DNA of 64,000 nt from Candidatus Thorarchaeota archaeon (GCA_004524445.1 SDNP01000001.1:32001-96000); one strand, 5' to 3'; positions 26,054 through 53,331 are shown, counted from the first letter of the stretch. The notes: generated by a model from the letters alone, not told the origin. A program made the numbers and translations.

Positions 26054-27045
26054 GTTCTAAAACTAGAACTATTTACCTAAACTATACTAAAAATGCTAAG
26101 CGATCAAGAATGAATTCCTTCAAGCGCCTGAGTAACCAATTTGACTTGAAGACAGGGACGCTACACTCTGGTTTGGCTATTCTCCTTGTCATCTCATTAT
26201 CGCTATCATTGATATCTGGGACTAGCTTATGTTTTCAATCTCCACAGAGCCAAGAAAAAGAACAAATACTTGCTGCTGAACTACCGACACTTAGCCTATT
26301 TTACTATTCGAACTGGAATGATACACTCTTACCCCTAGATTCGGGAGATAGAATCTCGGGCGATCATATTACTCTCAATGCCACATGGAGTCCTTCGGAG
26401 AATGCTAATGGTTCACTCATTGAGGTTAATGCTACGGCGATCCCGATGGTAATCGCGGCATCAAACAACGAATCATCTGTTGAAATCGACACCAGAGCAT
26501 TGGGAAATAATGCCACCGTGACAATCAACTGCACGACATGGCTAACAAATGGCACACCCATCTCACAGTTGATTGAGAATGTATTCTTAGGCAACTTTTT
26601 CAAGCCACATATAGAGATTGTGAGCCCTAACGGGGGCGAAGTATGGACTGGAGTCCATAACATCACTTGGCAGGCTTGGGATAACAACACACAAGAATCC
26701 TTGACGTTTGAAGTCTTACTATCTGCGGACGGAGGAAAAACGTTTCAATTGCTGGAGTCTGACCTTACAACAACATGGGTCGAATGGGATACTACTGGAT
26801 TCTCCAATCTCTCTACATATATGGTCCAAGTGCGTGCAAGTGATGGGATATATGTTGAAGATGACACTTCCGACTCGACCTTCACAGCTGGAGATGTAGC
26901 TACGGGTCCACCCAATTCCACTACAACAGATACTACCACGAATGGCAATGAAGACCTCCGAACTGCTCTCTTCATTGCTGCAGCGATTATTCTTAGTGCC
27001 TTCTTTGCGGTGATAGTGTACTATCTAGCTAAGAGAGAATTCTAG
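26050..27045 (+). CDS. Cell-surface protein with Ig/FN3-like domains and C-terminal TM anchor
   Basis: VSPNGGEVWTG..ITW, SADGG, WDTT, VRASDG; Thr-rich linker; many NxS/T; ATGA overlap with the HTH gene. Confidence 0.75.
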   Translation: MSSKTRTIYLNYTKNAKRSRMNSFKRLSNQFDLKTGTLHSGLAILLVISLSLSLISGTSLCFQSPQSQEKEQILAAELPTLSLFYYSNWNDTLLPLDSGDRISGDHITLNATWSPSENANGSLIEVNATAIPMVIAASNNESSVEIDTRALGNNATVTINCTTWLTNGTPISQLIENVFLGNFFKPHIEIVSPNGGEVWTGVHNITWQAWDNNTQESLTFEVLLSADGGKTFQLLESDLTTTWVEWDTTGFSNLSTYMVQVRASDGIYVEDDTSDSTFTAGDVATGPPNSTTTDTTTNGNEDLRTALFIAAAIILSAFFAVIVYYLAKREF

Positions 27046-27944
27046 TGGTTTTGCAGTGCCTTTTCAAGAAATGGATTAGTATTGATGACATGCTTATGTA
27101 GACCCAAGCTCTCTGGATCCAAACCAAGCGCCAGACCAAGTAGTTGTGTATAATATATGACAGGAATTTGGTATTTCTTCTCGCCCAGCTCTTTGTTCAG
27201 TTGCGCCTGTGATGCCTCATATTGAAGATGACAGAATGAACATACGTTGACCAAGCAGTCAACACCTTCGTCAATCAGTATATCCAGCTTATCTTTTGCA
27301 ATGTCCACTGAAACAGGAACATTGCTACCTCTCACGCCACCGCCAGCACCACAACAGATGTACTTGTCGCGATATTTGATGCTCTCCGCTCCCGTCGCCT
27401 CAACAAGCTCGTCCAGAAAGACATGCCGGTATTTACTCTCCCAAGGACGAAGCTTGCTAGGTTTCAATAGATGACAGCCATAATGTACTGCCGCCCTGAT
27501 ATTCTCTAGCGGATGAGTTACGAGCTCTCTAATTTGCTCATGTCCGATTTCATAAATCAGTTCAATAAGATGCCTGGCTTCAACTTTGGCACGATACTTG
27601 AGGCCAATTTCCTTCAGATGTTTTTGCACTTCATCGAGGCGTTTAGGTTGATCACGGACAATATGAAGTGCTTCCTTGAATGTACCATAGCAACCATTGC
27701 ATCCAGTTACAATATCGTGACCGGCGTTTTCAGCCAATGCTAGATTTCGAGATGCCAAAGCCAACCACGTTGGTTCGTTGAATGACCTTATGACCCCTGG
27801 AGCTGGGCAACAGCTTGCTCCCTCTAGCTCTTCTAGTTCGATACCAAGATGAGGAAGGACCGTTCTGATGCTCTTCTCGATATTTGGGAATCTGTTCGGC
27901 ATTACACACCCCAAGAAGAATGAATATGTTTGCCTCTCTGACAT
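27042..27944 (-). CDS. hdrB: Heterodisulfide reductase subunit B (copy 1)
   Basis: FLGC, CCPAPG, CNGC, HYGCH, CCGAGGG, CSFCH. Confidence 0.92.
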   Translation of the reverse strand: MSERQTYSFFLGCVMPNRFPNIEKSIRTVLPHLGIELEELEGASCCPAPGVIRSFNEPTWLALASRNLALAENAGHDIVTGCNGCYGTFKEALHIVRDQPKRLDEVQKHLKEIGLKYRAKVEARHLIELIYEIGHEQIRELVTHPLENIRAAVHYGCHLLKPSKLRPWESKYRHVFLDELVEATGAESIKYRDKYICCGAGGGVRGSNVPVSVDIAKDKLDILIDEGVDCLVNVCSFCHLQYEASQAQLNKELGEKKYQIPVIYYTQLLGLALGLDPESLGLHKHVINTNPFLEKALQNH

Positions 27945-27947
27945 CTA

Positions 27948-28493
27948 TTACTCCTCCCTGCCTTGACGCTCAATCAACTTCTTGAAGCCGGTTATGTCCA
28001 TGAGTTTCTGTACATCTTTCAATGCCTTTCTGTGAGAATGGACTGTTTCGGGGACCTCGTCCAGTCCCAATTCCTTTCTCATCTCTTGATTAGCATCATC
28101 CAAGGGGACTGCGTGTCCTGTATCCAATAGCTTCTGCGAGACTTTCTTATGTTGTGGAAGCATATATCCCTCTTGGACAGCCATATTCCGCATAATGATT
28201 ATTGCATCTGTGACCTTGATCTGTCTGGGGCACCTCTCAAGACATGTCAGACAAGTTGAACATAACCATAGGTCTGGACTAGATAATACCTCATCCTTCA
28301 AGCCCAAAATTGCCTTCCTCATCAACTCCCTCGTTCTGAATGCAGTTCTCCGGCCACTTGGGCAAACACTTGAGCAAGTTCCACACTGAATGCATGTCTT
28401 GATTCTATCTGCTCCAGCATCAACCACTCTGTCCACAAAATCAGGGTCAAATCTATCGGAGTCGATTGATTGGCGTTTGATCGAGTCGGTCAT
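27948..28493 (-). CDS. hdrC: Heterodisulfide reductase subunit C (copy 1)
   Basis: CIQCGTCSSVCP, LWLCSTCLTCLERCP, GHAVP. Confidence 0.92.
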   Translation of the reverse strand: MTDSIKRQSIDSDRFDPDFVDRVVDAGADRIKTCIQCGTCSSVCPSGRRTAFRTRELMRKAILGLKDEVLSSPDLWLCSTCLTCLERCPRQIKVTDAIIIMRNMAVQEGYMLPQHKKVSQKLLDTGHAVPLDDANQEMRKELGLDEVPETVHSHRKALKDVQKLMDITGFKKLIERQGREE

Positions 28494-28586
28494 TGGAAAT
28501 CCTCAGACTGCCTTTTCGATACCGGCCCAGACGTAAAGAGTGTTATAAGAATGGTGCTTATGACAAAACAGCTATTGATAAAATTC

Positions 28587-29654
28587 CTAATCGTAGGCAT
28601 ATTTTGCATTAGATAGAAGGGCTCGGTTTCCAATCCTGACATTGGTCAATCCTGAATCCTTTGCAACACATAACGCAATATCAGCATGTTTCTTATTTGT
28701 TCGTGGCAAATCCCTCATGTGAAGATGAGGCATAAATCCTAGGAGTGCTGTTGGAATAGTTTCATCGAGAGATGCAATGAACTCTGTCAATTTCCGCACC
28801 TCGCTTGCTCCAATATATCCCGGAATGAGAAGGATACTAGCAACTAAGAATTCACCTTCACGGTCCCTACCTATCTGAGCAAGCCTTCTGAAATTCCTGA
28901 TTACTGTGGTGTTAGATACACCAGTTAGGGCTGTATATAGGCTGGGAGTCATAGCCTTGAGGTCAATCTTTATCGTACCACCAGAGCCTCTGACAATGTC
29001 TGCTATGTTTTGTAGGTGTTTTCCTGAAATATTTCCATTTGATTCGTAGCAGACAGCTATATCCCCCTTTTCCAGCAGAAGTTGTGCTGTCTTCAGTGAA
29101 TGCTGCGGATTGCAGGAGGGGTCGCCCCCAAAGAAGCAGATACAGGCTGTTCTGCTATCTGCTTTATCTGCAAGTTGTTCCGGACTCGATAGAGGTTCTC
29201 CCAGCTTCATCATTCTTCTATAGCTTTGATTTTGGCAGAAGAGGCAGTCCGAATTACAGGAGCCATAGAAGACAGCTAGGCTATTCATTCCAAATCCACA
29301 TCTACCTCTCACGGGACAGATCCAATCCGCGACACAATTTGTTGGCAATGGGTCAAAATACCACGTAACTGGTGCTTCATCCGAATACTTTCTGACCACT
29401 TCCGAATCAACGACCTCTCTTAGATGACAGAATCCTGTATCGTCTTCTGTCATCTTACAATGATTTCCACAGTCAGGACACACTACCTGTCCGTTCGAGG
29501 GAACTTCAGGAACCAAACCTGCTCGTGTCCGAGTTTCTCTATGTGCTACAACCGCCTTTTCTATAAGACGTGGGTTTCTAGAAATGCAAGAGCCGCAGTA
29601 CCCAATCGAAACTGATGCTAGCACACTATCTTTATCATGATTCGGGCATCTCAT
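28587..29654 (-). CDS. Radical SAM enzyme (AmmeMemoRadiSAM / PFL-activase-like)
   Basis: CNSDCLFCQN, FFGGDP, ESNG, IDLK; N-terminal CPDCGNHC..FC; start refined to ATG 29654. Confidence 0.85.
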   Translation of the reverse strand: MRCPNHDKDSVLASVSIGYCGSCISRNPRLIEKAVVAHRETRTRAGLVPEVPSNGQVVCPDCGNHCKMTEDDTGFCHLREVVDSEVVRKYSDEAPVTWYFDPLPTNCVADWICPVRGRCGFGMNSLAVFYGSCNSDCLFCQNQSYRRMMKLGEPLSSPEQLADKADSRTACICFFGGDPSCNPQHSLKTAQLLLEKGDIAVCYESNGNISGKHLQNIADIVRGSGGTIKIDLKAMTPSLYTALTGVSNTTVIRNFRRLAQIGRDREGEFLVASILLIPGYIGASEVRKLTEFIASLDETIPTALLGFMPHLHMRDLPRTNKKHADIALCVAKDSGLTNVRIGNRALLSNAKYAYD

Positions 29655-29772
29655 TAAATGAACTACTTCTCGAAACACAATGAATCTTGTCATTGTATGT
29701 GTCAAAAAAGGTTGATTTGACAATGGATTTAAGGCAAGATTCCAAGCGCAGACCCGTAGTCGGTGCATCAAT

Positions 29773-30324
29773 GTGACAACAGCCGAAGAGAAGTCAGCAA
29801 TATCAATTGATGATCTCAATTCTGACTTTGTTGAAATGGTCAAAAGAGCGGGCGGTCCGAACATACAGAGCTGCTACCAGTGTGGAACTTGCAGCGGCAG
29901 TTGTCCCGCTGGAGCACGGACAAATTTTCTAGTTCGTGGAATCATTCGAAAAGCACTGCTGGGACTAAAAGAAGAGTGTCTGACTGCACCAGAGCTTTGG
30001 TATTGTACTACTTGTTACACCTGTACCGACCGATGTCCGCAGGATGTGACGCCTACTGAGGTTATCAAGGCGATTCGCAATATCGCTGTAGCTGAGGGTC
30101 ACATGCTCGAACCACATCAGAAAGTCGCTCAAAAAGTCCTAGAGTCCGGTCATGCGGTACCCCTAGATAAAGACAGTTGGGCAAAATTACGAGAAAATGT
30201 TGGCCTACCAAGTAGACCTCCGAATGCCAGTACTCATCCTGAAGCCATTGAGGAGGTTCAGAAACTAGCTAAGAAGACGGGATTTGATATTCTCGTAGAA
30301 GATAAACCAGAGGATGAAGAGTGA
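29773..30324 (+). CDS. hdrC: Heterodisulfide reductase subunit C (copy 2)
   Basis: CYQCGTCSGSCP, LWYCTTCYTCTDRCP, GHAVP. Confidence 0.92.
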   Translation: MTTAEEKSAISIDDLNSDFVEMVKRAGGPNIQSCYQCGTCSGSCPAGARTNFLVRGIIRKALLGLKEECLTAPELWYCTTCYTCTDRCPQDVTPTEVIKAIRNIAVAEGHMLEPHQKVAQKVLESGHAVPLDKDSWAKLRENVGLPSRPPNASTHPEAIEEVQKLAKKTGFDILVEDKPEDEE

Positions 30325-30327
30325 TTT

Positions 30328-31275
30328 TTGATGGCTAAGAAACCAAAATTCATGCATTTTTTGGGCTGCATAATCCCCCATAGATATCCAAGCATTCAGA
30401 AGGCAACGGAGCTGGTCTTTGAGGACTTAGATATGGAACTTCTGGATATGGAGTCAGCCACGTGTTGTCCTGCGCCTGGCGTATTCGGCTCATTCGACAA
30501 AGAAACATGGGCAACTATTGCGGCAAGAAATCTTACCATTGCAGAAGAGGCGAACGCTGCCATCACGACTGGTTGCAATGGCTGCTTTGCTAGTCTGTGG
30601 GATGCAAACCACGAGTTGAAGCATGATGATGAGCTACGAGCAAAAGTCAACGATAATCTTGCAGTGATTGGGCGTGAATTTAAAGGCACAATCGAAGTGA
30701 CCCATTACGTCGATGCGTTGGTAGACACTGCTGGTCTAGAGAAGATCCGAAAGCGAGTGACGAAACCGCTGGAAGGCGTTCGGATGGCACTCCACCCTGG
30801 TTGCCATTGGATGCGTCCCAAGGCTGTCAAACAGAAGGACGATTCGGAACGACCACACATCTTCCGAGAGCTCTGCGAAACGACTGGCGCCACGTATGTG
30901 CCATATAAAGATGAACTCATGTGTTGTGGTGCAGGTGGAGCAGTTAGGACTGCTGATATAGAGGTCGCTCTCGATTTCACGAAGCAGAAGTTCGATAGTA
31001 TTGAAGCGGCTGGAGGTGCTGACCTCATTGTTACACCTTGCCCATTTTGTGAATTGCAACTGGATTTGGGTCAAGTGGAGATTCAGAAGCATTTTGACAT
31101 TGAATACATCTATGATGTGCTTCATGTTACAGAACTACTTGCATTGGCTTTCGGACATGACCCAGATGAGTTTGGTCTAACAACACATCTCCAATATATG
31201 CAGCGAAAGAGTCAACCAAACTGGCAGAAAATTGGATTGCCTGAGATGCTTAAGACCACTGAGTCAGCAGACTAG
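30328..31275 (+). CDS. hdrB: Heterodisulfide reductase subunit B (copy 2)
   Basis: FLGC, CCPAPG, CNGC, HPGCH, CCGAGG, CPFC. Confidence 0.92.
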   Translation: MMAKKPKFMHFLGCIIPHRYPSIQKATELVFEDLDMELLDMESATCCPAPGVFGSFDKETWATIAARNLTIAEEANAAITTGCNGCFASLWDANHELKHDDELRAKVNDNLAVIGREFKGTIEVTHYVDALVDTAGLEKIRKRVTKPLEGVRMALHPGCHWMRPKAVKQKDDSERPHIFRELCETTGATYVPYKDELMCCGAGGAVRTADIEVALDFTKQKFDSIEAAGGADLIVTPCPFCELQLDLGQVEIQKHFDIEYIYDVLHVTELLALAFGHDPDEFGLTTHLQYMQRKSQPNWQKIGLPEMLKTTESAD

Positions 31276-42611: not shown

Positions 42612-45600
42612 CTACTCCCTCAGCATCTCTTCGATTTGGTCGAGGAAACTCTTCTCACGCCACCAACGGAGGTCTCTGGCTCCAGTTGGACATATTGCAC
42701 AGCATGCACCACAGCCCTCACATCTCATCTCATCGGTCACGCTCTTCTTAACACCAGGCTCAACTTCTACCATACTCACTGCATCATAGGGGCAGATCTC
42801 AGAGTAATGGCATAGATCGCAACCTACACAGAGATCTTGATCAACTTCCGCAGTCAATAGTTCGATCTCTACAGTACCGAGTGTTAATGGTATTGAGGCC
42901 TGACTTGCTGCACCTCTTGACTGATTTATCGAGTCGGCAACATTCTTTGCATATGTTACACCCAAGAAGATTCCCGGTACAGTTGTTTCAACAGGTCTGA
43001 ACTTCATGTGCATCTCTGCTAGAAAACCATCTTGACTCTTGTTAATGCCTAAGGCTTTAACCAGTTCATTGACATCATGTGGGGCTTCAAGTCCCACAGC
43101 AAGAACTACCATGTCGGATTGAATCTTCAGAGTTTCTTGAGACAATGTGTCGTAAATTGTTACAATCGCCTCATCACTGTCTTCTGCCTTTTCAACTGTG
43201 ATGGGATTCTCCCTGACCCAGCGAAGGTATGAAACGCCATTTTGCCTATTCTCTCTCCACATCTCTTCCATATTGTTGGCGTAGGGACGGATGTGTTCTT
43301 TATAGGCAGAGAAGATCCTAATATCTGGAAACCTCTCTCTTAGCTCTTTCTGCATAGCAATGACTGCAGAGCAACAGACACGAGAACAGTACTTATTCCC
43401 CTCACCAGGCGTCTGCCTTGAACCTACGCAATGAATAAAGACCGGGTTCTTTGGAGGCTTCTTAATTTCACCAGCTTTGAGTTTCTCTTCTAGGTCTTGA
43501 GTTGTAATGACTGCTGGAGTTTCTTCCCAACCATATTCGCCCTTCTCCGGCTCGTATGTATCATTCCCAACTGCAACCACCATCGAACCTATGGTATGTG
43601 TGGTTTCCTCCCCAGTTTTCAGATTCCTCACCGTCATATCATAGTTTCCGTAGGATCCATCTCGTTCAACGACTTTGGAGTTCAGAAGCACCTTGATTCT
43701 CTTTTCCTTTTCTACTCTTGAGGTCAGGTCCTTCACAATATCCTCTGCGTTCTCCATATTGGGAAATACATGATAGAGCCTGTTCAGACGACCGCCCAAT
43801 TTGTCTTCTTTTTCCACGAGAATGACATCAAATCCCTTGCTAGCTAAATCTAGGGCTGCACTCATTCCAGAAACTCCGCCACCAACTACCATGGAGGTGA
43901 GGGTTACTTCTACTCTCTCGACAGGAACAAATTCATTATTAATTGCCTTAGCAACACCGCTCCTGATCAGGTCTTGGGCCTTTTCTTGCCGCACCTCTGG
44001 AGGTGCATTGGCATTAACCAAGGCTAGATGCTCTCGTAGACCCACGGGCCCAACAAGGTAGTATCCTGAAAGACCTGCGGCTCTCAAAGCAGACCTGAAG
44101 GTGGCTTCATGTTGAAGCGGCGAACACGAACCGACAACAACTCTGTTGAGGTTATGTTCCTTTATTGCCTCAGTAATCATTTCTTGCCCCGGATCACTGC
44201 ACATGAATAGATAATCAGTACTGTACGCTACTCCTGGGATGTCTTTTGCCCACTCCGCTAATGCTGGCGCGTCAATGACGTTTCCGATAATTCCCCCACA
44301 GTGGCAGACAAAGACACCAACTCTTGCTTCCTCTCCCTCCGGAAGTGGAGCAATTTTGTCCGGTGGTTCGCTTTCAGGTATGGGTAAGTAATTATGAGCT
44401 GCCAGTGCTGCTCCTTTACCTTCATTCACAGTATCAGTGCCATCTTTCGGGCCATGGATGCATCCAGCCATGAAAATGCCTGGTCGGGTCGTTTCCAAGG
44501 CTGCCTGATTGGGATGTTTCTCCTTGAGCCATCCTGTATCTCCCAACTCAATATTCAGAGTCTTGGCCAGTTTCTCATGCCCTTCATTAGGTCTAAAACT
44601 ACAGTTGAGAACTACCATGGATACATCTTCAATCTCCATGATTTCTCCCGTATCGGTATCCTCCATCTTCACTGATAGGTCATGAGTGTCTAGGTCTTCA
44701 GAGATTTCAGCAACTCTCCCTCTGATGAAGTCTATACCGTGGTTATGTTGACTATCCCAAAGAAACTCTTCGAGTGCCTTGCCCGCCGTCCTCATATCCA
44801 TATAGGTGTAAATGATCTCACAGTGGTCCTCGGGATAATGCATCCTGGTGGCTTGTGCAAGCTTGAGTCCGAAAGAACAACAGACGCGATTACAATGATC
44901 GCTATAGCCCTGTACCACTTCTCTTACATCTCTGCTCCCTACACAATTGACAAATAGGACTTTTTCGGGCTCTCTTCCATCAGAAGGTCTGACCATATGT
45001 GCATCGGTCGGTCCTGTTGGATGGGTCTGACGATCATACTCTAACGAAGTAACCACGTTTGGAAATACACCATAACCATACTCGCCATAATCAACCGGTT
45101 TGTATTCTTGGAATCCAGTGGCAACAATAATGGAGCCAACATTGAGATCGAATACCTTATCCTCATCTTCGTAATTGATACAATCCTGAGGGCACACTCC
45201 GGCACACGTGCCGCAACCAATACAAGCGTCTCTATCAATGGTGGCAACAAGCGGAATCTGCTGTGGGAAATTCAAGTAAATCGCTTTTCTAGTCGAGAGA
45301 CCGAAGTCATAGGGATTTGGCACCTCGACTGGACAGTTTCTGATACACATCTTGCAGCCAGTACACTTGTCTTCATCGACATATCTGGCCTTTTTGCGCA
45401 CTGAAACAGTGAAGTCGCCCGCTCGACCCTTTACCTTCTCAACTTCCGAGAGAGCATGAATTGTGATATTCGGATGCTTTCCAACGAATGATGTCAGAGG
45501 GGTCATAACACAGGCTGAACATTCGAGCATCGGGAATATCTTATAGATCGCAACGTAGTTTCCGCCGATATTCACTGTCTTCTCGATGATGTGAGCATGA

Positions 45601-45716
45601 TGTCCAGCATCTGCCAAATCCAATGCTGCGCTGATGCCAGCCATGCCGCCGCCTATGATGGCAACATCTGTGGGTTTTTGTTTGTCTGAGGTCTTCATTG
45701 CTGAGTCACTGGTCAT
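42612..45716 (-). CDS. hdrA: Second tandem-FAD HdrA-like protein (no MvhD)
   Basis: GGGMAG, FPMLECSAC, ferredoxin insert, CVGSRD..CNRVCC; VFVCHCG, GGGVSG, CSRVCC; C-terminal 2x[4Fe-4S]. Confidence 0.9.
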   Translation of the reverse strand: MTSDSAMKTSDKQKPTDVAIIGGGMAGISAALDLADAGHHAHIIEKTVNIGGNYVAIYKIFPMLECSACVMTPLTSFVGKHPNITIHALSEVEKVKGRAGDFTVSVRKKARYVDEDKCTGCKMCIRNCPVEVPNPYDFGLSTRKAIYLNFPQQIPLVATIDRDACIGCGTCAGVCPQDCINYEDEDKVFDLNVGSIIVATGFQEYKPVDYGEYGYGVFPNVVTSLEYDRQTHPTGPTDAHMVRPSDGREPEKVLFVNCVGSRDVREVVQGYSDHCNRVCCSFGLKLAQATRMHYPEDHCEIIYTYMDMRTAGKALEEFLWDSQHNHGIDFIRGRVAEISEDLDTHDLSVKMEDTDTGEIMEIEDVSMVVLNCSFRPNEGHEKLAKTLNIELGDTGWLKEKHPNQAALETTRPGIFMAGCIHGPKDGTDTVNEGKGAALAAHNYLPIPESEPPDKIAPLPEGEEARVGVFVCHCGGIIGNVIDAPALAEWAKDIPGVAYSTDYLFMCSDPGQEMITEAIKEHNLNRVVVGSCSPLQHEATFRSALRAAGLSGYYLVGPVGLREHLALVNANAPPEVRQEKAQDLIRSGVAKAINNEFVPVERVEVTLTSMVVGGGVSGMSAALDLASKGFDVILVEKEDKLGGRLNRLYHVFPNMENAEDIVKDLTSRVEKEKRIKVLLNSKVVERDGSYGNYDMTVRNLKTGEETTHTIGSMVVAVGNDTYEPEKGEYGWEETPAVITTQDLEEKLKAGEIKKPPKNPVFIHCVGSRQTPGEGNKYCSRVCCSAVIAMQKELRERFPDIRIFSAYKEHIRPYANNMEEMWRENRQNGVSYLRWVRENPITVEKAEDSDEAIVTIYDTLSQETLKIQSDMVVLAVGLEAPHDVNELVKALGINKSQDGFLAEMHMKFRPVETTVPGIFLGVTYAKNVADSINQSRGAASQASIPLTLGTVEIELLTAEVDQDLCVGCDLCHYSEICPYDAVSMVEVEPGVKKSVTDEMRCEGCGACCAICPTGARDLRWWREKSFLDQIEEMLRE

Positions 45717-47287: not shown

Positions 47288-47469
47288 ATTAGGGTCCTCA
47301 ATGTATCAGTGAAAATCCTAGCATTATGATGTAATCACTGTTCTCTGTGTCATAATTTATTTCTTTTGACGTGTTTTTGAGCTATGCACAGCTATGTACA
47401 TATGCACGGCTTTATTTAAAAATCGGGAAATATCACCCTGTATCCAAAAATATGTGGGTGTTGTGGTGC

Positions 47470-48498
47470 ATGCGTTATATCAAGATATCAAAAGAGAATA
47501 CATACAAGTTCCTAGAGCGACTCAAGGAGGTGGGAACTCTTCATGCCCCAATGAAGATTTCAGAGAAGTTCTATGATTTTTGCGAAGTTGATGATGTAAA
47601 GGAAGTTGCCTTCGAATACAATCGAACCATCAGACCCCCTCGTCGCTTTTTCTACCCTGAAGAGGAGGTTATGTTCAAATTTGACACAGCTCGGGTGGAA
47701 ATGTATGAAAACACCCCGCGAGACGAGAGAGTAATCCTATTTGGAGTGCATAATTGTGACATTGTTGGTCTACGAATTATGGACTCTGTATTCATGGACG
47801 AGCAACCGGACCCCTACTATCAAAAAAGGAGAAAGAATGGCATAATCATTGGGCTGTCTTGCCTTCCAGATGAATACTGTTTCTGCAATGTGAGACGCAT
47901 TGAATTTGTGGACGCAGGTTTTGACTTGTTTTTCCATGAGCTGCCCGATGGATATTTGGTGAGGGTTGGAACTGTGACTGGTCACAAGCTAGTAGATCCT
48001 CATCCCGAACTCTTTGAGGAAATCACCAAAGAGGACACCAAAAACCTGGAAGAATTCGAAGCGAAAAAGGCAAGCATGTGGACGGTGAAGGGCAACTGGG
48101 ATGACCTGAGATACTTTCTTGAGATGCGAATGGATCATGAAATGTATGACCGAGAGAGCGATAAATGCCTAGGTTGTGGGAATTGTACTCTAACCTGTCC
48201 AACTTGTCGCTGTCACACGTATAGGGATATCCCAAGTATTGATGGACGTACGGGTGAGAGAATGAAATACTGGGACTCCTGTCAGTTCCGTTCACACGGG
48301 CTTGTTGCGGGGCCTCACAATTTCCGACCCACCAAGAAGTCGAGATTCTTTAATCGCTATCAGTGCAAGAATGCATATTGTCCCGATACAACTACTGCGT
48401 ACTGTGTAGGATGCGGAAGATGCACCTATTTCTGTCCTGCTGAAATCAACTTCAAGAAAAACCTCATGGAGATTGGTGGCTATACGGAGGCGATCTAA
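47470..48498 (+). CDS. hydB: Group 3b [NiFe] sulfhydrogenase beta subunit
   Basis: FGVHNCD, CFC, CLGCGNCTLTCPTCRC, CVGCGRCTYFCP; start refined to ATG 47470. Confidence 0.88.
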   Translation: MRYIKISKENTYKFLERLKEVGTLHAPMKISEKFYDFCEVDDVKEVAFEYNRTIRPPRRFFYPEEEVMFKFDTARVEMYENTPRDERVILFGVHNCDIVGLRIMDSVFMDEQPDPYYQKRRKNGIIIGLSCLPDEYCFCNVRRIEFVDAGFDLFFHELPDGYLVRVGTVTGHKLVDPHPELFEEITKEDTKNLEEFEAKKASMWTVKGNWDDLRYFLEMRMDHEMYDRESDKCLGCGNCTLTCPTCRCHTYRDIPSIDGRTGERMKYWDSCQFRSHGLVAGPHNFRPTKKSRFFNRYQCKNAYCPDTTTAYCVGCGRCTYFCPAEINFKKNLMEIGGYTEAI

Positions 48499-49365
48499 TT
48501 GACTAATAACAATGGCTCTAAGGAGAATATTTACGATACAAACAAGTGTAGGCTACTCAGAAGATATCCCCTGACTGAACAAGAGGATCTGTTCTTATTT
48601 CGCTTTGAAGATTCTGAAGTTGCACAGAACTGGCGCTTTAAGCCCGGTCAATTTGTTCAGGTTTCTCTACTTGGTCTTGGAGAAGTGCCAATATCTATCT
48701 GCTCATCGGCGAGAAGGATGGGCTTCTTTGAATTGTGCATACGAAATGCGGGAAAGGTCACTTCACAAATCCATGAGCTAGAACCAGGCGACCTGGTTGG
48801 TATCAGAGGACCATATGGAAACGGATTTCCTATGGAGCAGTTCCACGGACGAGACCTACTGTGCGTAGCTGCAGGACTTGGAATGGCACCACTACGGTCA
48901 GTATTTCTCTATGCTATTGATAACCGATGGCAATTTGGAAACATCACCATAATCAATACTGCAAAGTATGGCAAGGAATTGCTGTTTGAAAAAGAACTGG
49001 AAGCAATGAAGGATATTGCTACCGCTGAGAATATTGCGATTGTTCAAAGCGTCACGAGAGACCCCGAGTACCCAAGCCTGCATGGAAGAGCGACCGAACA
49101 TATGGACAAGGCCAATGTCGATCCCAATAATTGTGCTGTGGCAATGTGTGGTCCACCTGCAATGTATCGCGGCATGTTTGACCACTTGGTTGAGTCTGGT
49201 TACGATCCACGCTACATATGGGTCACTCTAGAGCGAAAAATGTACTGTGGGACTGGAAAATGTGGACACTGTAACATCGGTACGGCGACCTCATGGAAGT
49301 ATGCCTGTAAGGATGGTCCGGTGTTTGACTACTATGCAATAAATTCGATTCCGGGGTTGATATGA
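48499..49365 (+). CDS. hydG: Sulfhydrogenase gamma subunit (FAD/NAD(P)-binding)
   Basis: PGQF, GEVPISI, RGPYGNGF, AGLGMAP, CGPP, ERKMYCGTGKCGHC, CKDGPVF. Confidence 0.9.
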   Translation: MTNNNGSKENIYDTNKCRLLRRYPLTEQEDLFLFRFEDSEVAQNWRFKPGQFVQVSLLGLGEVPISICSSARRMGFFELCIRNAGKVTSQIHELEPGDLVGIRGPYGNGFPMEQFHGRDLLCVAAGLGMAPLRSVFLYAIDNRWQFGNITIINTAKYGKELLFEKELEAMKDIATAENIAIVQSVTRDPEYPSLHGRATEHMDKANVDPNNCAVAMCGPPAMYRGMFDHLVESGYDPRYIWVTLERKMYCGTGKCGHCNIGTATSWKYACKDGPVFDYYAINSIPGLI

Positions 49366-49366
49366 G

Positions 49367-50185
49367 ATGGCCATAATTGACGAATGCAGAACTGATTGCA
49401 AACCAAGGGTCGGTGTATACGGGCTTACTTCTTGTTATGGTTGTCAGCTGAAGCTAGCTACCGTTCAGAAGATAATGGAGATAGCAGATGCTGTTCAAAT
49501 CGAGAGCTTCTATATGATGTCCAGCAATAGCAAGATTCCCGCAGATGTGGATATCGCTTTTGTTGAGGGGTCCGTTTCGACCGAGAAGGATCTGAACGAA
49601 TTGATAGAAATACGAAAACACTCACGCGTTCTTGTCGCATTGGGCGCTTGTGCGGTCCATGGGGGTGTACAGAGTTGGGCGGAAGGAGAGATGGACATTG
49701 ATAAACTCCACTCAACCGTTTACGGTGATGCTGAAATAAACATGAAGCCGCTTCAAGCAACTCCAATAGAACAACATGTTGAGGTCGACTATTCTCTTCC
49801 CGGTTGCCCGCCCGAGGAAGATGAGTTGATGTATTTCATCTCTGCCTTCTTGTTTGGCACCTATCCGGAGCCAAAGGACTATCCGGTCTGTGCTGAGTGT
49901 CGCCTTGCAGGAAATCCTTGCATCCTTATTGAGCGAGATGCTCCCTGTTTAGGGCCTGTCATCACTGCAGGGTGCAAGGCAAGGTGTCCTTCATTCAATG
50001 TGCCATGTGTAGGTTGTAGAGGTCCAGTACCATATGAAACAGCCTGGTTTGACTCCTTGGCTAAGACATTTCGGATGAAAGGGATGGATGAGGAATTCAT
50101 CCGGGATAGAATGCGTGTATTTGGGGCACATAATCCCAATCTTGAGCCTATGCTCAAAAGAATATTCGGAGAGGAGAAAGAATGA
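49367..50185 (+). CDS. hydD: Sulfhydrogenase delta (small) subunit
   Basis: LTSCYGCQ, EGSV, GACAVHGG, PGCPP, CAEC, CLGP. Confidence 0.9.
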   Translation: MAIIDECRTDCKPRVGVYGLTSCYGCQLKLATVQKIMEIADAVQIESFYMMSSNSKIPADVDIAFVEGSVSTEKDLNELIEIRKHSRVLVALGACAVHGGVQSWAEGEMDIDKLHSTVYGDAEINMKPLQATPIEQHVEVDYSLPGCPPEEDELMYFISAFLFGTYPEPKDYPVCAECRLAGNPCILIERDAPCLGPVITAGCKARCPSFNVPCVGCRGPVPYETAWFDSLAKTFRMKGMDEEFIRDRMRVFGAHNPNLEPMLKRIFGEEKE

Positions 50186-51519
50186 CATCCACTGAAAAGA
50201 AGAAATCAAGTAAGAAATCGAAACTAACTCGTCCAATCAATGTTGATCACATTGCCCGAATTGAGGGAAAGGCTGGCATTGAGGTCATTTATGACGGAAA
50301 GGATGTTGAAGTTGTAAATGTGAATGTCTTCGAGGGACCACGGTACTTCGAGGCCATAACACTGGGCAAGCCTCTCGAAGAAGCTGCAGCTGTCTTTCCC
50401 CGAGTCTGTTCGTTTTGTGCTGCAGCACACAAGATTACTGCAGTTGAAGCAATAGAGGATGCCATCGGCCTAGATTCTACAGAACAGACGAAAAAATTCC
50501 GAGAACTGTTATACATAGGCGACTATCTTGAGAGCCATGCACTCCATCTCTTCCTACTGGTCTTACCAGACTTTCTTGGATACCCTGATGCCTTCACAAT
50601 GGCAAAGGACTATCCTGATACTGTGAAGGCTGGAATGAAAATGAAAGACATCGGCGCAGATATCCAGACCATTATTGGTTCTCGGTATATCCATCAGGAA
50701 AATCTACTCATTGGCGGTTTCGGTTCTCTCCCCACAAAGAGCAAGCTCCTCGCTCTAGCCAGTAGATTGAAATATCTGCGAAATGAATCTGAAGAGGCCC
50801 TGGAACACCTTCTCAGCTATCGTAATTGGCCTGAAGTTAAAGCTTCTCGCAATCATCTTGCTCTGCAACCTCGAGGTAAGCACTATACAATGTTTGGGAA
50901 CGAAATCCACTCAACTGATGGTGGAAAGTTCAAGAATGATGCATATAAGATGAGAATTTCAGAATCTGTGGTTCCACATTCGTTTGCAAAGCATTCTCAC
51001 TATAATAATGCTCCATTCATGACTGGCGCACTATCTCGATATACACTCTTCAATGGCATGCTTGAGGGGCGAGCGAAAGAACTCGCAGGAATGTACGAAA
51101 CTTATCTTGATCCAGATAATCCAATGTCCAACAATTTCGCTCAGGCTATCGAACTCGTCTATTACACTCATAAGGCAGAAGCTATTAGTCGCGATTTAGC
51201 TGATAATTTGAAACGCTATGAGCAGCGGATAAAACCGAGGATTGTACCTGGAACAGGAGTATCTGTAACAGAGGCTCCAAGGGGGCTATTGGCATATACA
51301 ATAGGGGTTGACAAAAACGGGAGAGTCAACAAATGTGATATCATAACGCCCACTGCCATGTTTCTCCCTATAATGGAGGAGGATCTTCAACGGATGTCCC
51401 AAGGGCTGCTGAATAAGGGTCTGAAAGATACCAAAGAGATTGGCGAGAAATTGGAGACTGTTGTCCGCTCTTACGACCCATGTGTATCTTGTAGTGTGCA
51501 TGTGACTGAATTAAAGTGA
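50182..51519 (+). CDS. hydA: [NiFe] hydrogenase large (alpha) subunit, group 3b
   Basis: RIEG, RVCSFCAAAH (L1), EAPRG, DPCVSCSVH (L2). Confidence 0.93.
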   Translation: MTSTEKKKSSKKSKLTRPINVDHIARIEGKAGIEVIYDGKDVEVVNVNVFEGPRYFEAITLGKPLEEAAAVFPRVCSFCAAAHKITAVEAIEDAIGLDSTEQTKKFRELLYIGDYLESHALHLFLLVLPDFLGYPDAFTMAKDYPDTVKAGMKMKDIGADIQTIIGSRYIHQENLLIGGFGSLPTKSKLLALASRLKYLRNESEEALEHLLSYRNWPEVKASRNHLALQPRGKHYTMFGNEIHSTDGGKFKNDAYKMRISESVVPHSFAKHSHYNNAPFMTGALSRYTLFNGMLEGRAKELAGMYETYLDPDNPMSNNFAQAIELVYYTHKAEAISRDLADNLKRYEQRIKPRIVPGTGVSVTEAPRGLLAYTIGVDKNGRVNKCDIITPTAMFLPIMEEDLQRMSQGLLNKGLKDTKEIGEKLETVVRSYDPCVSCSVHVTELK

Positions 51520-51546
51520 TGCAATAGATTGTGAGGTCAGGGACTC

Positions 51547-53331
51547 ATGCATGGTTACATGGGGAAAATACTCACTGTTAACCTCACAAAAGCAGTAGTC
51601 TCGGAGATCCTGATAGAACCCGCAATCGCTTCATCGTTCATAGGGGGAAGTGGCTATGCAGCACGGTTACTCTATGACTACCTTGATTCAAATGTACACC
51701 CCCTGGCCCCTGAAAATCCCCTTCTATTCATGACTGGCCCCCTGACTGGGACCTTGGCTCCCTGTACGGGACGTCATGTAGTTTGCTCACGTTCTCCCCT
51801 GACTGGACAATGGGGTGAGGCAAATGCCGGTGGTCACTTCGGAGCGAAATTGAAGTCATCGGGGTTTGACGGGATTTTAATTGTAGGTCGGGCATCGTCT
51901 CCAAAATATCTACATCTGTCCGAGGGTGCCTGTAGCATTGAGGACGCAACCAACCTGTGGGGAAAGACTACTGATATTGTTCAGCATGAGTTGCGTGATG
52001 CAATATCTAAGGCAGAATTTGCAGTTATTGGTCCTGCTGGAGAGAACTTAGTACGGTTTGCATCTATTGTAAACGATGAGCGAGTTGCTGCAAGATGCGG
52101 CATGGGCACCATCATGGGATCAAAAAATCTGAAGGCTATAGCTGTTGAAGGAATCTTACGTCCATCAATCCATGACGAGGACTCATTCCGGGATCTCGCT
52201 CTTTCAACAGCAAAAGAGTTGCGCAAGAATCAAACAACACTCTCGGAACAAGGGACTGCGATGTATGTCCAAAGAGGGATGATTGCCAATGATATGCCAG
52301 TGAAATACTTCCAAGAAACAGAGTTTGATGTGGATTCCATTGATGGAGATGCTCTGCGTAGACTACTAACACGCAGATATGCCTGTCATTCGTGCCCAAT
52401 AGGCTGTGGTCGTGTAATATCATTGGAAGAAGCAGGGCTAGACGGAATAGCAGGTCCAGAATACCAGACGATTGCAGCTTTTGGCACCAACTTGAAGATG
52501 TCAGATTTGAAAGAAATATCAGTTATGAACCTACTATGCAATTCTCTAGGTATGGACACAATTAGTTGCGGCAGTATGGTTGCCTTTGCAACTCACCTTT
52601 GTGAATTAGGAAGGCTAGATTGGAATCTCGAATGGAATGACCCGGAGCGCACCCGTTCTTTGATTGAAGATATTGCATATCGCAGAGGACCGGGGAATGA
52701 ACTTGCTGAAGGCTCGCTTAGATTTGCCTCAAAATATGGAGTTGAAAATCTAGCTCTTCAGGTCAACGGGCTGGAGATTCCCAATCATGATCCACGAGCA
52801 TTCGTTGGCTTGGGACTGGTCTATGCGGTATCCGCTCGAGGGGCAAGTCATACGGAAGCCGATATGCACACTGTCGACGTAGGTGTTGATGTTCCCCAAC
52901 TGGGCATTCATGCATCCGATAGGCTTGCTAATGCAGGAAAGGGTGTGACAGTAGCTAAGTGTCAAGATTTTCGAGCATTTCATGATTCGCTGATAATGTG
53001 TCATTTTCCTGAGGTTCCCCCGGATGTGCTTGTCAAGCTCCTCAATTACGGCACTGGGTCTGCATTCTGTACCCAGGACATATTGATGGTTGGTTCTAGA
53101 ATAGTGAATACTAAGCGTCTGTTCAATCTTCGGTGTGGTTTGAAAGTAGAGAACGAGAAACTTCCCCCTCCTTTACTAAAACCTCTAGATGGCAGCATTC
53201 CCGGAGGTATTGTACCGGACATGTCGGCTATGATGAATGAATACTATCAATATCGAGAATGGGATGTGAATACAGGAAAACCATCGTCAAACAAACTGAG
53301 AGAACTCGATTTGAAGATGCATGGTGACTGA
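51547..53331 (+). CDS. aor: Tungsten aldehyde:ferredoxin oxidoreductase family enzyme
   Basis: GYMGKIL, SPLTG, IGPAGE, MGSKNLKAI, CHSCPIGC, MDTIS, HDPR, RGASH. Confidence 0.9.
   Translation: MHGYMGKILTVNLTKAVVSEILIEPAIASSFIGGSGYAARLLYDYLDSNVHPLAPENPLLFMTGPLTGTLAPCTGRHVVCSRSPLTGQWGEANAGGHFGAKLKSSGFDGILIVGRASSPKYLHLSEGACSIEDATNLWGKTTDIVQHELRDAISKAEFAVIGPAGENLVRFASIVNDERVAARCGMGTIMGSKNLKAIAVEGILRPSIHDEDSFRDLALSTAKELRKNQTTLSEQGTAMYVQRGMIANDMPVKYFQETEFDVDSIDGDALRRLLTRRYACHSCPIGCGRVISLEEAGLDGIAGPEYQTIAAFGTNLKMSDLKEISVMNLLCNSLGMDTISCGSMVAFATHLCELGRLDWNLEWNDPERTRSLIEDIAYRRGPGNELAEGSLRFASKYGVENLALQVNGLEIPNHDPRAFVGLGLVYAVSARGASHTEADMHTVDVGVDVPQLGIHASDRLANAGKGVTVAKCQDFRAFHDSLIMCHFPEVPPDVLVKLLNYGTGSAFCTQDILMVGSRIVNTKRLFNLRCGLKVENEKLPPPLLKPLDGSIPGGIVPDMSAMMNEYYQYREWDVNTGKPSSNKLRELDLKMHGD

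What the first reader, a model, noticed from the sequence alone, without database searches (positions are those of the whole stretch)
27042..53331. Multi-Hdr redox hub: 3 HdrCB, 2 tandem HdrA, group 3b hydrogenase and AOR, with no mcr or mvhAG
Seen: within about 26 kb, three distinct hdrCB pairs, hdrA-mvhD, a second hdrA, hydBGDA and aor, with kor just outside. No mvhAG, fdh, flx, mcr or apr/dsr is in the window. Established: HdrABC-MvhD bifurcates electrons from a docked donor module. Inference: a modular, non-methanogenic bifurcation or confurcation system with interchangeable HdrBC arms for different disulfides; the partner docking on MvhD could be the 3b hydrogenase or AOR. This is the best candidate for an undescribed system here.
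Basis: partly seen in the sequence, partly recalled or inferred. Interest (0 to 1): 0.75.

Follow-up and report, generated by a model that had tools for sequence, protein, structure and literature searches.

The report
Conserved Thorarchaeota multi-Hdr gene cluster
This Asgard (Thorarchaeota) archaeon carries a class-wide conserved cluster of three HdrBC pairs and two double-length HdrA proteins, built from already described part types; the neighbouring hydrogenase and aldehyde oxidoreductase are optional neighbours, and the cluster's substrate and electron partner remain unknown.

Summary
The window lies in a Thorarchaeota MAG (2.79 Mb, about 90% complete).

- **Core.** The core is 27042-45716: hdrB1C1 with a radical SAM gene, hdrC2B2, hdrAA-mvhD-hdrC3B3, and hdrAA2-DUF2096. 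This order recurs in about 45 Thorarchaeota species at 70-85% protein identity. The hdrAA-mvhD orthologue is in 84 of 87 genomes of the class.
- **The two giant HdrA.** Both are "type II" fused HdrA, a published class. One half has Cys197, the inserted ferredoxin domain and the flavin-stabilising lysine. The other half has the N-terminal and C-terminal Fe-S domains but not that lysine.
- **"No mvhAG" holds only for the window.** The genome has two Mvh/Vhu-type hydrogenases elsewhere.
- **No hydrogenase is obligatory.** Three relatives that are 92-93% complete keep the Hdr cluster with no group-3 hydrogenase found.
- **Neighbours.** The 3b hydrogenase is an ancestral cassette divergent from hdrAA2, kept in about 26 of 87 genomes. 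The AOR was seen beside hydA only in this window and is a standard Pyrococcus-type enzyme.
- **Not found.** McrA, ComA, DsrC, CofD and a true FdhA; metVF lies on another contig.

Verdict: a real, conserved, Hdr-rich locus of a known kind, with partner and disulfide unknown. DUF2096 is a candidate Hdr accessory. Earlier notes of this scan concern this same stretch, not other DNA.

The parts
27042..27944 (-). hdrB1 (300 aa), methanogen-type HdrB
   Evidence: Pfam CCG, two stretches. TIGR03288 gives 382 bits against a cut-off of 345. It scores 337 bits to 5odc_B, with about 55% identity in the first alignment block. Both Cys motifs are intact.
27948..28493 (-). hdrC1 (181 aa)
   Evidence: Pfam Fer4_8 and Fer4_17. 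Two CxxCxxCxxxC motifs. Only 4 nt separate it from hdrB1.
28587..29864 (-). Radical SAM gene conserved upstream of hdrC1B1; generic PFL-activase-like; role unknown
   Evidence: Pfam Radical_SAM. Weak AmmeMemoRadiSam and activase matches. Present in most Thorarchaeota loci. The Atlas structure match covers residues 71-425, so the true start is probably later than the ORF start.
29773..30324 (+). hdrC2 (183 aa)
   Evidence: Pfam Fer4_8. Two CxxCxxCxxxC motifs. 47% identical to HdrC1.
30328..31275 (+). hdrB2 (315 aa), methanogen-type HdrB
   Evidence: Pfam CCG, two stretches. TIGR03288 gives 378 bits against a cut-off of 345. It scores 326 bits to 8rvu_b. 39% identical to HdrB1.
34378..37836 (+). 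hdrAA-mvhD: type II fused HdrA with a C-terminal MvhD domain (ORF from 34210; probable start M57)
   Evidence: Against 5odc_A, residues 65-419 match 146-501, residues 503-659 match 2-158, and residues 931-1069 match 515-652. MvhD covers 1073-1205. FlpD and Pyr_redox_2 by Pfam. Start inferred. Orthologue found in 84 of 87 class genomes.
37840..38358 (+). hdrC3 (172 aa), same operon as hdrAA-mvhD
   Evidence: Pfam. Cys motifs intact. 4-nt gap to the gene upstream.
38359..39234 (+). hdrB3 (291 aa)
   Evidence: Pfam CCG, two stretches. TIGR03288 gives 282 bits, below the cut-off. 47% identical to the HdrB of the C33 set.
42038..42604 (-). DUF2096 gene directly downstream of hdrAA2; candidate Hdr accessory
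   Evidence: Pfam DUF2096_N plus a KH-like C-terminal domain. Adjacent to hdrAA2 in nearly all Thorarchaeota loci. A second copy lies beside hdrC on C16. In another archaeal phylum, 8 of 27 DUF2096_N loci have hdrA or hdrB alongside.
42612..45716 (-). hdrAA2: type II fused HdrA without MvhD (1034 aa)
   Evidence: Pfam and PDB sequence search. AF2 model has pLDDT 85.8 and pTM 0.87. Residues 13-447 match the HdrA core at Z 33.8, and residues 464-1034 match full-length HdrA at Z 31.9. Invariant Cys and Gly residues listed.
47371..51519 (+). hydBGDA, group 3b NiFe hydrogenase: a facultative ancestral neighbour cassette, not a core part
   Evidence: Pfam. sulfhyd_HydA 467 bits. Orthologues at 60% identity or more occur in about 26 of 87 genomes, mostly 3-6 kb from hdrAA2. 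Divergent arrangement with 133-390 bp between the starts in L018, L035 and L037; absent in L032, L033 and L048.
51547..53331 (+). aor, canonical aldehyde:ferredoxin oxidoreductase: a neighbour seen only in this window, not a core part
   Evidence: AFOR_N and AFOR_C. 362 and 359 bits to 9mqx and 1aor, but only 137 bits to BamB 4z3w. No AOR after hydA in L018, nor after hdrAA2 in L032, L033 and L048; L009 ends inside hydB and L035 inside hydA.

Best explanation
The stretch holds a class-wide conserved Thorarchaeota Hdr cluster (27042-45716). It is made of known module types and most likely encodes two or more co-located complexes for flavin-based electron bifurcation or confurcation, not one novel machine.

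**Shown**
- Each giant HdrA is a type II fused HdrA that folds as an intramolecular HdrA pseudo-dimer.
- The N-half carries the Cys194/Cys197 pair, the inserted ferredoxin domain, the HA4 cluster motif and the Lys409-type flavin site.
- hdrAA-mvhD-hdrC3-hdrB3 is a tight operon.

**Inferred**
- Each HdrAA has one bifurcating flavin, one ferredoxin exit and one entry path, which runs through the C-terminal ferredoxin domain and, in HdrAA-MvhD, the MvhD [2Fe-2S] cluster.
- HdrAA-MvhD/HdrC3B3 couples a mid-potential donor or acceptor docked at MvhD to ferredoxin and to an unidentified disulfide. That partner would be MvhAG where the genome has it, and otherwise another module such as MetVF or the NADPH module of the neighbouring 3b hydrogenase.
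- HdrAA2, with DUF2096, and possibly the orphan canonical HdrA on C49, use HdrB1C1 and HdrB2C2.
- The 3b hydrogenase and the AOR are ordinary stand-alone redox enzymes that share the ferredoxin/NADPH pools, not subunits.
For: - **Gene calls and motifs:**
- **Domain map against 5ODC HdrA:**. MAFFT of all HdrA pieces in the genome shows the complementary halves, and the same split appears as two separate genes on C16 and C33.
- **Conservation in a 62-sequence alignment:** 32 invariant Cys and both GxGxxG motifs. The Lys409 equivalent is invariant in the N-half (62 of 62) but is A/T/S or E/T in the C-half of all 41 Thorarchaeota sequences.
- **Structure:** AF2 pTM 0.87. Both halves match solved HdrA at Z 32-34.
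- **Synteny:** about 45 species. The orthologue is in 84 of 87 class genomes.
- **Paralogue age:** paralogues are 30-50% identical while orthologues are 70-85%, so the paralogues predate the class.
- **Genome count:** six HdrB and six HdrC against six HdrA-type units.
- **Mvh:** Mvh/Vhu-type hydrogenases on C16 and C23. Thermoplasmata arrays of type II hdrA with mvhD end in mvhGA.
- **Published framework:** fused or tandem HdrA as heterodimer-like units (PMC9012536), type II HdrA (PMC12054007), Thorarchaeota double HdrA with MvhD (PMC11237513), MetFV-HdrABC-MvhD with 2 FAD in HdrA (PMC5861303).
Against: - No partner matches the cluster's distribution. MvhA is in 64 of 87 genomes, the Hdr-linked 3b HydA in about 26 of 87, and MetF in 75 of 87.
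- The disulfide substrate is unknown: no McrA, ComA or DsrC hit.
- Which HdrBC binds which HdrA is inference from gene order and counting only.
- Unrelated flanking genes (kor, ZnuA) are just as syntenic, so conserved order alone does not prove that the sub-clusters work together.
- Unrelated gene pairs (a transcription factor with a surface protein) and, in this genus, a PAS kinase and a DraG-like gene sit between the hdr units.
- No expression or biochemical data exist.
Confidence: 0.55

Rival explanations
1. One reading: one modular machine in which the 3b hydrogenase docks on MvhD and several HdrBC arms are exchanged. The docking part could be the HydB/HydG NADPH module, by analogy with FlxABCD-HdrABC.
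For: - In roughly 20 of the 25 relatives that keep this HydA orthologue, it lies on the hdrAA contig, mostly 3-6 kb from hdrAA2.
- hydB and hdrAA2 start 133-390 bp apart on opposite strands in L018, L035 and L037.
- Flx shows that an NAD(P)H flavoprotein module can feed Hdr (Ramos 2015, as cited in PMC4759654). That FlxD is MvhD-like is my own recollection.
- Both halves of each HdrAA keep the HA4 motif, so two HdrC docking sites per HdrAA are conceivable.
Against: - The cassette is missing from about 60 of 87 genomes that keep the Hdr cluster, including three 92-93% complete genomes with no group-3 hydrogenase detected.
- hydBGDA is a complete stand-alone sulfhydrogenase-type set.
- The hydrogenase lies beside hdrAA2, which has no MvhD, not beside hdrAA-mvhD.
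- I did not test homology of HydB/HydG to Flx subunits.
Confidence: 0.15
2. A MetVF-coupled methylene-H4MPT/H4F reductase of the Wood-Ljungdahl pathway, like MetFV-HdrABC-MvhD of Moorella thermoacetica.
For: - The only purified complex with a double HdrA plus MvhD plus HdrBC is the Moorella one (PMC5861303; the nature of its HdrA is described in PMC9012536).
- The genome has metV-metF beside mtrH-mtrA-mtrH on C19.
- MetF is in 75 of 87 class genomes, including the three without hydrogenase.
Against: - metVF is on another contig and is never seen next to the hdr cluster.
- MetF was not found in the two single-contig genomes G010 and G059, nor in G014, all of which keep the hdr cluster.
Confidence: 0.2
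3. The clustering is inherited synteny of old paralogues with separate functions, and there is no functional unit beyond the individual operons.
For: - Unrelated flanks (korA, HTH166, unk342, unk107, ZnuA) are as conserved in order as the hdr genes.
- Unrelated genes sit between the units, and their content varies.
- The paralogues are only 30-50% identical.
- Three further hdr sets lie elsewhere in the genome.
Against: - The hdr units stay neighbours although intervening genes come and go across 16 of the 17 genera sampled.
- Three of the six hdrBC pairs and both fused hdrA lie in 19 kb.
- hdrAA2 has no hdrBC of its own, while two hdrCB pairs lack an hdrA.
Confidence: 0.3
4. The AOR docks on MvhD, as the AOR-family BamB works with HdrA-like BamE in class II benzoyl-CoA reductase.
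For: - AOR genes lie near Hdr or Mvh genes three times in this genome: in the window, on C23 (aor, small ORF, mvhDGA) and on C16 (hdrA-838, aor, hdrC).
- Some bacterial loci put an AOR-family gene beside a type II hdrA (L066, L086).
- The composition of the Bam complex is from my own knowledge.
Against: - The window's AOR is of the Pyrococcus furiosus type, 362 bits against 137 for BamB.
- None of the four other loci that show the relevant stretch has an AOR there.
- The genome has ten AOR paralogues, so some adjacency is expected by chance.
Confidence: 0.03

Closest known systems
Type II (fused double) HdrA of ANME, methanogens and Moorella (HdrA3/4 of Chadwick et al. 2022, PMC9012536; 'type II' of PMC12054007)
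   Same: - Two TrxR-like modules in one chain.
- Complementary presence of the N-terminal cluster domain and Cys197.
- Optional MvhD fusion.
- hdrBC in the same cluster.
   Different: - The domain order is reversed relative to the ANME HdrA3/4 description: here the half with Cys197 comes first.
- The second flavin site lacks Lys409 in all 41 Thorarchaeota sequences, whereas PMC12054007 reports both key residues in 75% of type II sequences.
- No FdhB or molybdopterin genes are alongside.
- The host has no Mcr.
MvhADG-HdrABC of methanogens (PDB 5ODC)
   Same: - HdrB1 and HdrB2 are about 50-55% identical to methanogen HdrB and pass TIGR03288.
- All cofactor motifs of HdrA, HdrB, HdrC and MvhD are present.
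- The genome encodes two Mvh/Vhu-type hydrogenases.
   Different: - HdrA is a fused pseudo-heterodimer instead of a homodimer.
- mvhAG is not in the cluster and is absent from some relatives.
- No CoM synthesis gene (ComA) and no Mcr were found, so the substrate is not known to be CoM-S-S-CoB.
MetFV-HdrABC-MvhD of Moorella thermoacetica
   Same: - A double HdrA with 2 FAD, plus MvhD, plus HdrBC, without a hydrogenase.
- The host carries a Wood-Ljungdahl-type metVF.
   Different: - metVF is on another contig.
- MetF was not found in three relatives that keep the cluster.
FlxABCD-HdrABC of Desulfovibrio
   Same: - An Hdr core next to an NAD(P)H-type flavoprotein/Fe-S module, here HydB/HydG of the 3b hydrogenase.
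- An MvhD-like connector is present in both.
   Different: - Here the neighbour is a full hydrogenase and is optional.
- No DsrC was found.
- Homology of HydB/HydG to Flx subunits was not tested.
HdrA2B2C2 of Methanosarcina acetivorans (HdrA-MvhD fusion, F420H2-dependent)
   Same: - MvhD fused to HdrA.
- Works without a hydrogenase.
- The 1208-aa ORF scores 1174 bits on NF040770, above the cut-off of 1100.
   Different: - That score is inflated by the two HdrA modules.
- The Methanosarcina enzyme has a single HdrA module.
- No CofD (F420 synthesis) was found in this genome.

Membership tests
Soluble HdrABC heterodisulfide reductase | HdrB with two CCG-type Cys motifs (ligands of the non-cubane clusters) | tested here: met
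   All three HdrB have both CX(31-39)CCX(35-36)CXXC motifs and two Pfam CCG stretches.
Soluble HdrABC heterodisulfide reductase | HdrC with two [4Fe-4S] binding motifs | tested here: met
   Two CxxCxxCxxxC motifs in HdrC1, HdrC2 and HdrC3.
Soluble HdrABC heterodisulfide reductase | HdrB passes the curated equivalog model TIGR03288 | tested here: met
   HdrB1 scores 382 bits and HdrB2 378 bits against a cut-off of 345. HdrB3 scores 282 bits and is below it.
Soluble HdrABC heterodisulfide reductase | The organism makes and uses CoM-S-S-CoB (Mcr, CoM synthesis) | tested here: not met
   No McrA hit and no ComA hit. The best ComE-like hit is 115 bits against a cut-off of 221. The genome is about 90% complete, so absence is likely but not proven.
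Type II (fused) HdrA | Two thioredoxin-reductase-like modules in one polypeptide | tested here: met
   Shown. Structure matches cover residues 13-447 (Z 33.8) and 464-1034 (Z 31.9).
Type II (fused) HdrA | Complementary halves: one has Cys197 and no N-terminal domain, the other the reverse | tested here: met
   MAFFT alignment. C66/C69 and C471/C473/C506/C531 are invariant in 62 sequences.
Type II (fused) HdrA | Both flavin sites keep the Lys409/Glu356 bifurcation signature | tested here: not met
   The Lys is invariant in the N-half (62 of 62). In the C-half it is A/T/S in the 28 HdrAA2-type rows and E/T in the 13 HdrAA-MvhD-type rows. It is kept in 13 of 21 distant homologues.
MvhADG-HdrABC | mvhA and mvhG encoded with hdr or mvhD | tested here: not met
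   The only NiFe large subunit in the window is the 3b HydA. Vhu-type pairs lie on C16 and C23.
MvhADG-HdrABC | Hydrogenase co-occurs with the Hdr core across relatives | tested here: not met
   MvhA is in 64 of 87 genomes and HdrAA-MvhD in 84 of 87. G044, G046 and G061 keep Hdr but gave no group-3 hit with three different queries.
MetFV-HdrABC-MvhD | metF and metV in the hdr cluster | tested here: not met
   metV-metF lies on C19:70806-72484 and is absent from all hdr loci examined.
MetFV-HdrABC-MvhD | Co-distribution of MetF with the Hdr core | tested here: inconclusive
   MetF is in 75 of 87 genomes. It was not found in G010, G059 or G014, which keep the cluster.
FlxABCD-HdrABC | FlxA-type NAD(P)H flavoprotein and FlxBC Fe-S subunits next to hdr | not tested
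   hydB/hydG lie beside hdrAA2 in about 26 genomes, but no Flx reference sequence was available for comparison.
Group 3b [NiFe] hydrogenase (sulfhydrogenase type) | Four-gene hydBGDA set, with a large subunit closest to HydA/ShyA | tested here: met
   Pfam. sulfhyd_HydA scores 467 bits against VhuA 126 bits. This is below the equivalog cut-off of 880, so it shows family-level membership only.
Aldehyde:ferredoxin oxidoreductase (AOR) | AFOR_N plus AFOR_C domains, closest to characterised AOR | tested here: met
   Pfam scores of 245 and 341 bits. 9mqx_D scores 362 bits and 1aor_A 359 bits.
Class II benzoyl-CoA reductase (BamB-type AOR with HdrA-like BamE) | The AOR-family subunit is of BamB type | tested here: not met
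   4z3w_A (BamB) scores only 137 bits, and only over the N-terminal 200 residues.

The most novel reading that the evidence does not exclude
The cluster is a hydrogenase-independent core machine of Thorarchaeota. In this reading, two single-flavin type II HdrA scaffolds each carry two different HdrBC arms on their two HA4 sites and so connect ferredoxin to two or three distinct, still unknown disulfides. DUF2096 acts as a previously unrecognised Hdr accessory or assembly factor shared with other archaeal phyla.
Probability: 0.15. Interest if true: 0.7.

Novelty: new member of a known kind. Interest (0 to 1): 0.4.

Why it matters
What Hdr complexes do in archaea without methanogenesis, and which disulfide they reduce, is an old open question. 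It also bears on models of Asgard hydrogen and syntrophic metabolism.

This locus gives a well-defined target that is near-universal in Thorarchaeota:
- an operon-encoded HdrAA-MvhD/HdrC3B3 core;
- a second scaffold, HdrAA2, with DUF2096;
- two methanogen-like HdrBC pairs.

These persist in relatives where no group-3 hydrogenase was found and in relatives where MetF was not found, and this genome gave no ComA or DsrC hit.

It does not reveal a new kind of system. The parts are known classes, and the hydrogenase and AOR neighbours are incidental or optional.

Tried and rejected
- **F420H2 as donor:** no CofD hit. A CofE-like ligase domain does exist on C19, so this is weakened, not excluded.
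- **Formate as donor:** no true FdhA. There are only weak hits on C9 of 41 bits or less, which I took, without checking, to be Fwd-type.
- **DsrC as acceptor:** no hit.
- **CoM-S-S-CoB as substrate:** no McrA or ComA hit, and ComE is below the cut-off.
- **BamB-like role for the AOR:** rejected.
- **DUF2096 fold:** AF2 gave pLDDT 74.6 and pTM 0.57. The wide structure search gave only generic helical bundles (Z 9.9 or less) and KH-like matches (Z about 7), so it is uninformative. A homologue search returned almost only Thorarchaeota-type proteins. No paper in the library mentions DUF2096.
- **unk430 (32466-33758):** no Pfam or NCBIfam match, and the Atlas gave only hypothetical proteins. I treat it, with HTH337, as an unrelated variable insert.
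- **Radical SAM gene:** generic activase-like; nothing links it to Hdr except position.
- **Packing of the two HdrAA halves:** model coordinates are not exposed, so I could not test directly whether the halves pack like the 5ODC HdrA dimer. Only pTM 0.87 speaks for a fixed arrangement.
- **HdrB tree:** no tree with methanogen references was built, because no reference sequences were available as files. I used PDB bit scores and pairwise identities instead.

Full report
**Observation.** ORF listing and Pfam/NCBIfam scans confirm the reported genes at the reported coordinates:
- hdrB1 and hdrC1 (27042-28493, minus strand), preceded by a radical SAM gene
- hdrC2 and hdrB2 (29773-31275, plus strand)
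- a 1208-aa ORF (34210-37836) with two HdrA-like modules and a C-terminal MvhD domain, followed within 4 nt by hdrC3 and hdrB3
- a 1034-aa double HdrA on the minus strand (42612-45716), followed after 7 nt by a DUF2096 gene
- hydBGDA (47371-51519) and aor (51547-53331)

Between them lie genes with no evident link to Hdr: an HTH protein with an acidic unknown protein, a PAS histidine kinase, an ADP-ribosylglycohydrolase and a GNAT. All three HdrB keep both Cys-rich motifs, and all three HdrC keep two ferredoxin-type motifs. The first 56 codons of the 1208-aa ORF are not conserved, so the likely start is M57 at 34378.

**Organism and genome context.** The window is contig C24:32001-96000 of a 2.79-Mb, 64-contig genome estimated 90% complete. 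Relatives of the giant HdrA come overwhelmingly from Thorarchaeota MAGs.

A genome-wide BLAST shows a very Hdr-rich organism: six HdrB, six HdrC and six HdrA-type units. The HdrA-type units are:
- the two fused ones in the window
- two sets with the same two halves as separate genes: C16 (hdrC-hdrB-hdrA_N-hdrA_C-mvhD) and C33 (hdrC-hdrB-hdrA_N-hdrA_C/mvhD)
- a canonical 653-aa HdrA on C49
- an 838-aa HdrA-MvhD on C16

The genome also has five NiFe large subunits. Two are Vhu/Mvh-type with matching small subunits. One sits in an mvhD-G-A operon on C23. The other is about 5 kb from the C16 hdr set (VhuA 488 and 503 bits). So 'no mvhAG' is true of the window only.

**Anatomy of the two giant HdrA.** Against the solved HdrA of PDB 5ODC, the 1208-aa ORF aligns in three pieces:
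- residues 65-419 match the TrxR core with the inserted ferredoxin domain (146-501)
- residues 503-659 match the N-terminal domain (2-158)
- residues 931-1069 match the end of the core plus the C-terminal ferredoxin domain
- residues 1073-1205 match MvhD

An alignment of all HdrA pieces of the genome shows the same rule in all four two-part sets. The first part has Cys194/Cys197, the inserted ferredoxin domain and the HA4 motif, but no N-terminal or C-terminal domain. [quoted passage not shown]

In a 62-sequence alignment (Thorarchaeota, Thermoplasmata, Desulfobacterales and others) the 32 cluster-binding Cys and both GxGxxG motifs are invariant. PMC12054007 treats Lys409 as a mark of a bifurcating flavin. 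Its equivalent is invariant in the first half. In the second half of all 41 Thorarchaeota sequences it is replaced by A/T/S or E/T, although 13 of 21 distant homologues keep it.

An AF2 model of the 1034-aa protein is confident as a whole (pLDDT 85.8, pTM 0.87). Residues 13-447 superpose on the HdrA core (Z 33.8, rmsd 1.3 A). Residues 464-1034 superpose on full-length HdrA (Z 31.9, rmsd 2.8 A).

This is the fused pseudo-heterodimer described for ANME and Moorella (PMC9012536) and classed as type II HdrA (PMC12054007). It has already been noted in Thorarchaeota and Lokiarchaeota, often with MvhD attached (PMC11237513). The Thorarchaeota detail I add is that only one of the two flavin sites keeps the bifurcation signature.

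**Conservation.** In about 45 Thorarchaeota species the order below recurs at 70-85% protein identity:

korA / HTH / unknown / hdrB1C1-rSAM / hdrC2B2 / (HTH-unknown) / hdrAA-mvhD-hdrC3B3 / DUF2096-hdrAA2

An hdrAA-type match is found in 84 of 87 genomes of the class. Rows with 70% identity or more to hdrAA-mvhD are listed for about 75 of them, and HdrAA2 usually lies 2-6 kb away on the same contig. Paralogues within the genome are only 30-50% identical, so the paralogues are older than the class. The caveat is that unrelated flanking genes are equally syntenic, so conserved order is weaker evidence for joint function than it looks.

**The hydrogenase and the AOR.** Orthologues of the window's HydA (60% identity or more) occur in about 26 of 87 genomes. 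In roughly 20 of the 25 relatives they are on the hdrAA contig, mostly 3-6 kb from hdrAA2 and up to about 19 kb away.
- In L018, L035 and L037, hydB and hdrAA2 start 133-390 bp apart on opposite strands.
- In L032, L033 and L048 the cassette is absent, and the genes that otherwise follow it (MemTrans or unk107, then ZnuA) come right after hdrAA2.

So hydBGDA is an ancestral, divergently oriented neighbour that has been lost many times while the Hdr cluster stayed. It is a complete sulfhydrogenase-type set.

In the four other loci that show the stretch after hydA or after hdrAA2 (L018, L032, L033, L048), none has an AOR there. The same-genus locus L009 ends inside hydB and L035 ends inside hydA, so they cannot say. 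The window's AOR is a canonical Pyrococcus-type enzyme, 362 bits against 137 for BamB.

**Which partner docks on MvhD?** MvhA homologues are in 64 of 87 class genomes. Three genomes that are 92-93% complete (G044, G046, G061) keep both giant HdrA but gave no group-3 NiFe hit with a VhuA model, an MvhA query or a HydA query. No hydrogenase is therefore an obligatory partner.

Other candidates:
- CofD, a true FdhA, DsrC, ComA and McrA were not found.
- metV-metF lies with mtrH-mtrA-mtrH on C19.
- MetF is in 75 of 87 genomes, including the three without hydrogenase, but was not found in G010, G059 (both single contigs) or G014.
- In Thermoplasmata, arrays of type II hdrA and mvhD end in mvhG-mvhA, so Mvh docking on this kind of HdrA is natural where Mvh exists.

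The best reading is a partner-flexible core, as is known for the methanogen enzyme, which binds either a hydrogenase or a formate dehydrogenase (PMC9012536). The actual partners here remain unknown.

**HdrBC arms.** HdrB1 and HdrB2 pass the curated CoB-CoM HdrB model (382 and 378 bits against 345). They score higher against methanogen HdrB (337 and 326 bits, about 55% identity in the first alignment block) than their 39% mutual identity would suggest. HdrB3 is more divergent and groups with the C33 HdrB.

Six HdrBC pairs for six HdrA-type units would allow one-to-one pairing. The surplus pairs in the window would then serve HdrAA2 and the orphan canonical HdrA on C49. Both halves of each HdrAA keep the HA4 motif, so two arms per scaffold are also possible. 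Both pairings are inference.

**DUF2096.** This gene follows hdrAA2 in nearly all Thorarchaeota loci. A second DUF2096_N gene lies beside an orphan hdrC on C16. In 38 genomes of another archaeal phylum, reached through a Hydrothermarchaeales locus, 8 of 27 DUF2096_N loci have hdrA or hdrB within 1.5 kb. I expect well under one by chance, although the genomes are related and so not independent. Fold and literature searches gave nothing. It is a candidate Hdr accessory.

**Verdict.** The locus is a genuine, class-wide conserved multi-Hdr cluster built from published module types. It fits the published picture of Asgard archaea with HdrABC, group 3b/3c hydrogenases and many AORs acting on an 'unidentified heterodisulfide' (PMC11291895, PMC9723677). 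It is not a categorically new system. Its value is as a defined, hydrogenase-independent target for finding the substrate and partners of non-methanogenic Hdr.

Noticed in passing
window 42038-42604; G000:C16:45835-46356 (L088:10835-11356); L099, L102-L106, L111, L125: DUF2096-family genes sit next to hdr genes in three settings: after hdrAA2 in Thorarchaeota, beside an orphan hdrC on C16, and beside hdrA or hdrB in 8 of 27 loci of another archaeal phylum. No paper in the library mentions DUF2096.
   Followed up: partly
G000:C33:9911-18343 (L091): A further set, hdrC-hdrB-hdrA_N-hdrA_C/mvhD, is followed on the same strand by a 760-aa Fe-S protein with no other Pfam domain and by an acyl-CoA dehydrogenase. 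This may be an Hdr module linked to acyl-CoA oxidation or reduction.
   Followed up: no
G000:C19:70806-78769 (L098): A gene run of metV, metF, an mtrH-like gene, mtrA, mtrH, DUF2114, a CofE-like F420 ligase domain protein and a LarC-like nickel insertion protein. It occurs in a genome where no McrA or CofD was found.
   Followed up: no
G000:C23:3061-8635 (L090); G000:C16:39683-47030 (L088): AOR paralogues, each with a small poly-ferredoxin gene, lie next to mvhDGA on C23. On C16 they lie between an 838-aa HdrA-MvhD (with a 288-aa poly-ferredoxin) and an orphan hdrC. The genome has ten AOR paralogues.
   Followed up: partly
L063, L069, L070 (Thermoplasmata MAG contigs): Long same-strand arrays hold two or three type II hdrA, split hdrA halves and several mvhD-containing genes, and end in mvhG-mvhA. 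These are multi-Hdr clusters comparable to, or larger than, the one in the window.
   Followed up: no
G044, G046, G061 (Thorarchaeota genomes, 92-93% complete): No group-3 NiFe hydrogenase large subunit was found with three different queries, although the full hdrAA pair and MetF are present. Some Thorarchaeota may lack cytosolic hydrogenases altogether.
   Followed up: partly
window 25553-27045 and 31375-33758: Two pairs, each an HTH protein with an unknown protein that has no Pfam match, flank the hdrCB block. The second pair is present in only about half of the related loci.
   Followed up: no
window 39269-41047 and G000:C16:60646-62397: A PAS histidine kinase follows the hdr operon both in the window and in the C16 hdr set. 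In the window's case it is found only in this genus.
   Followed up: no
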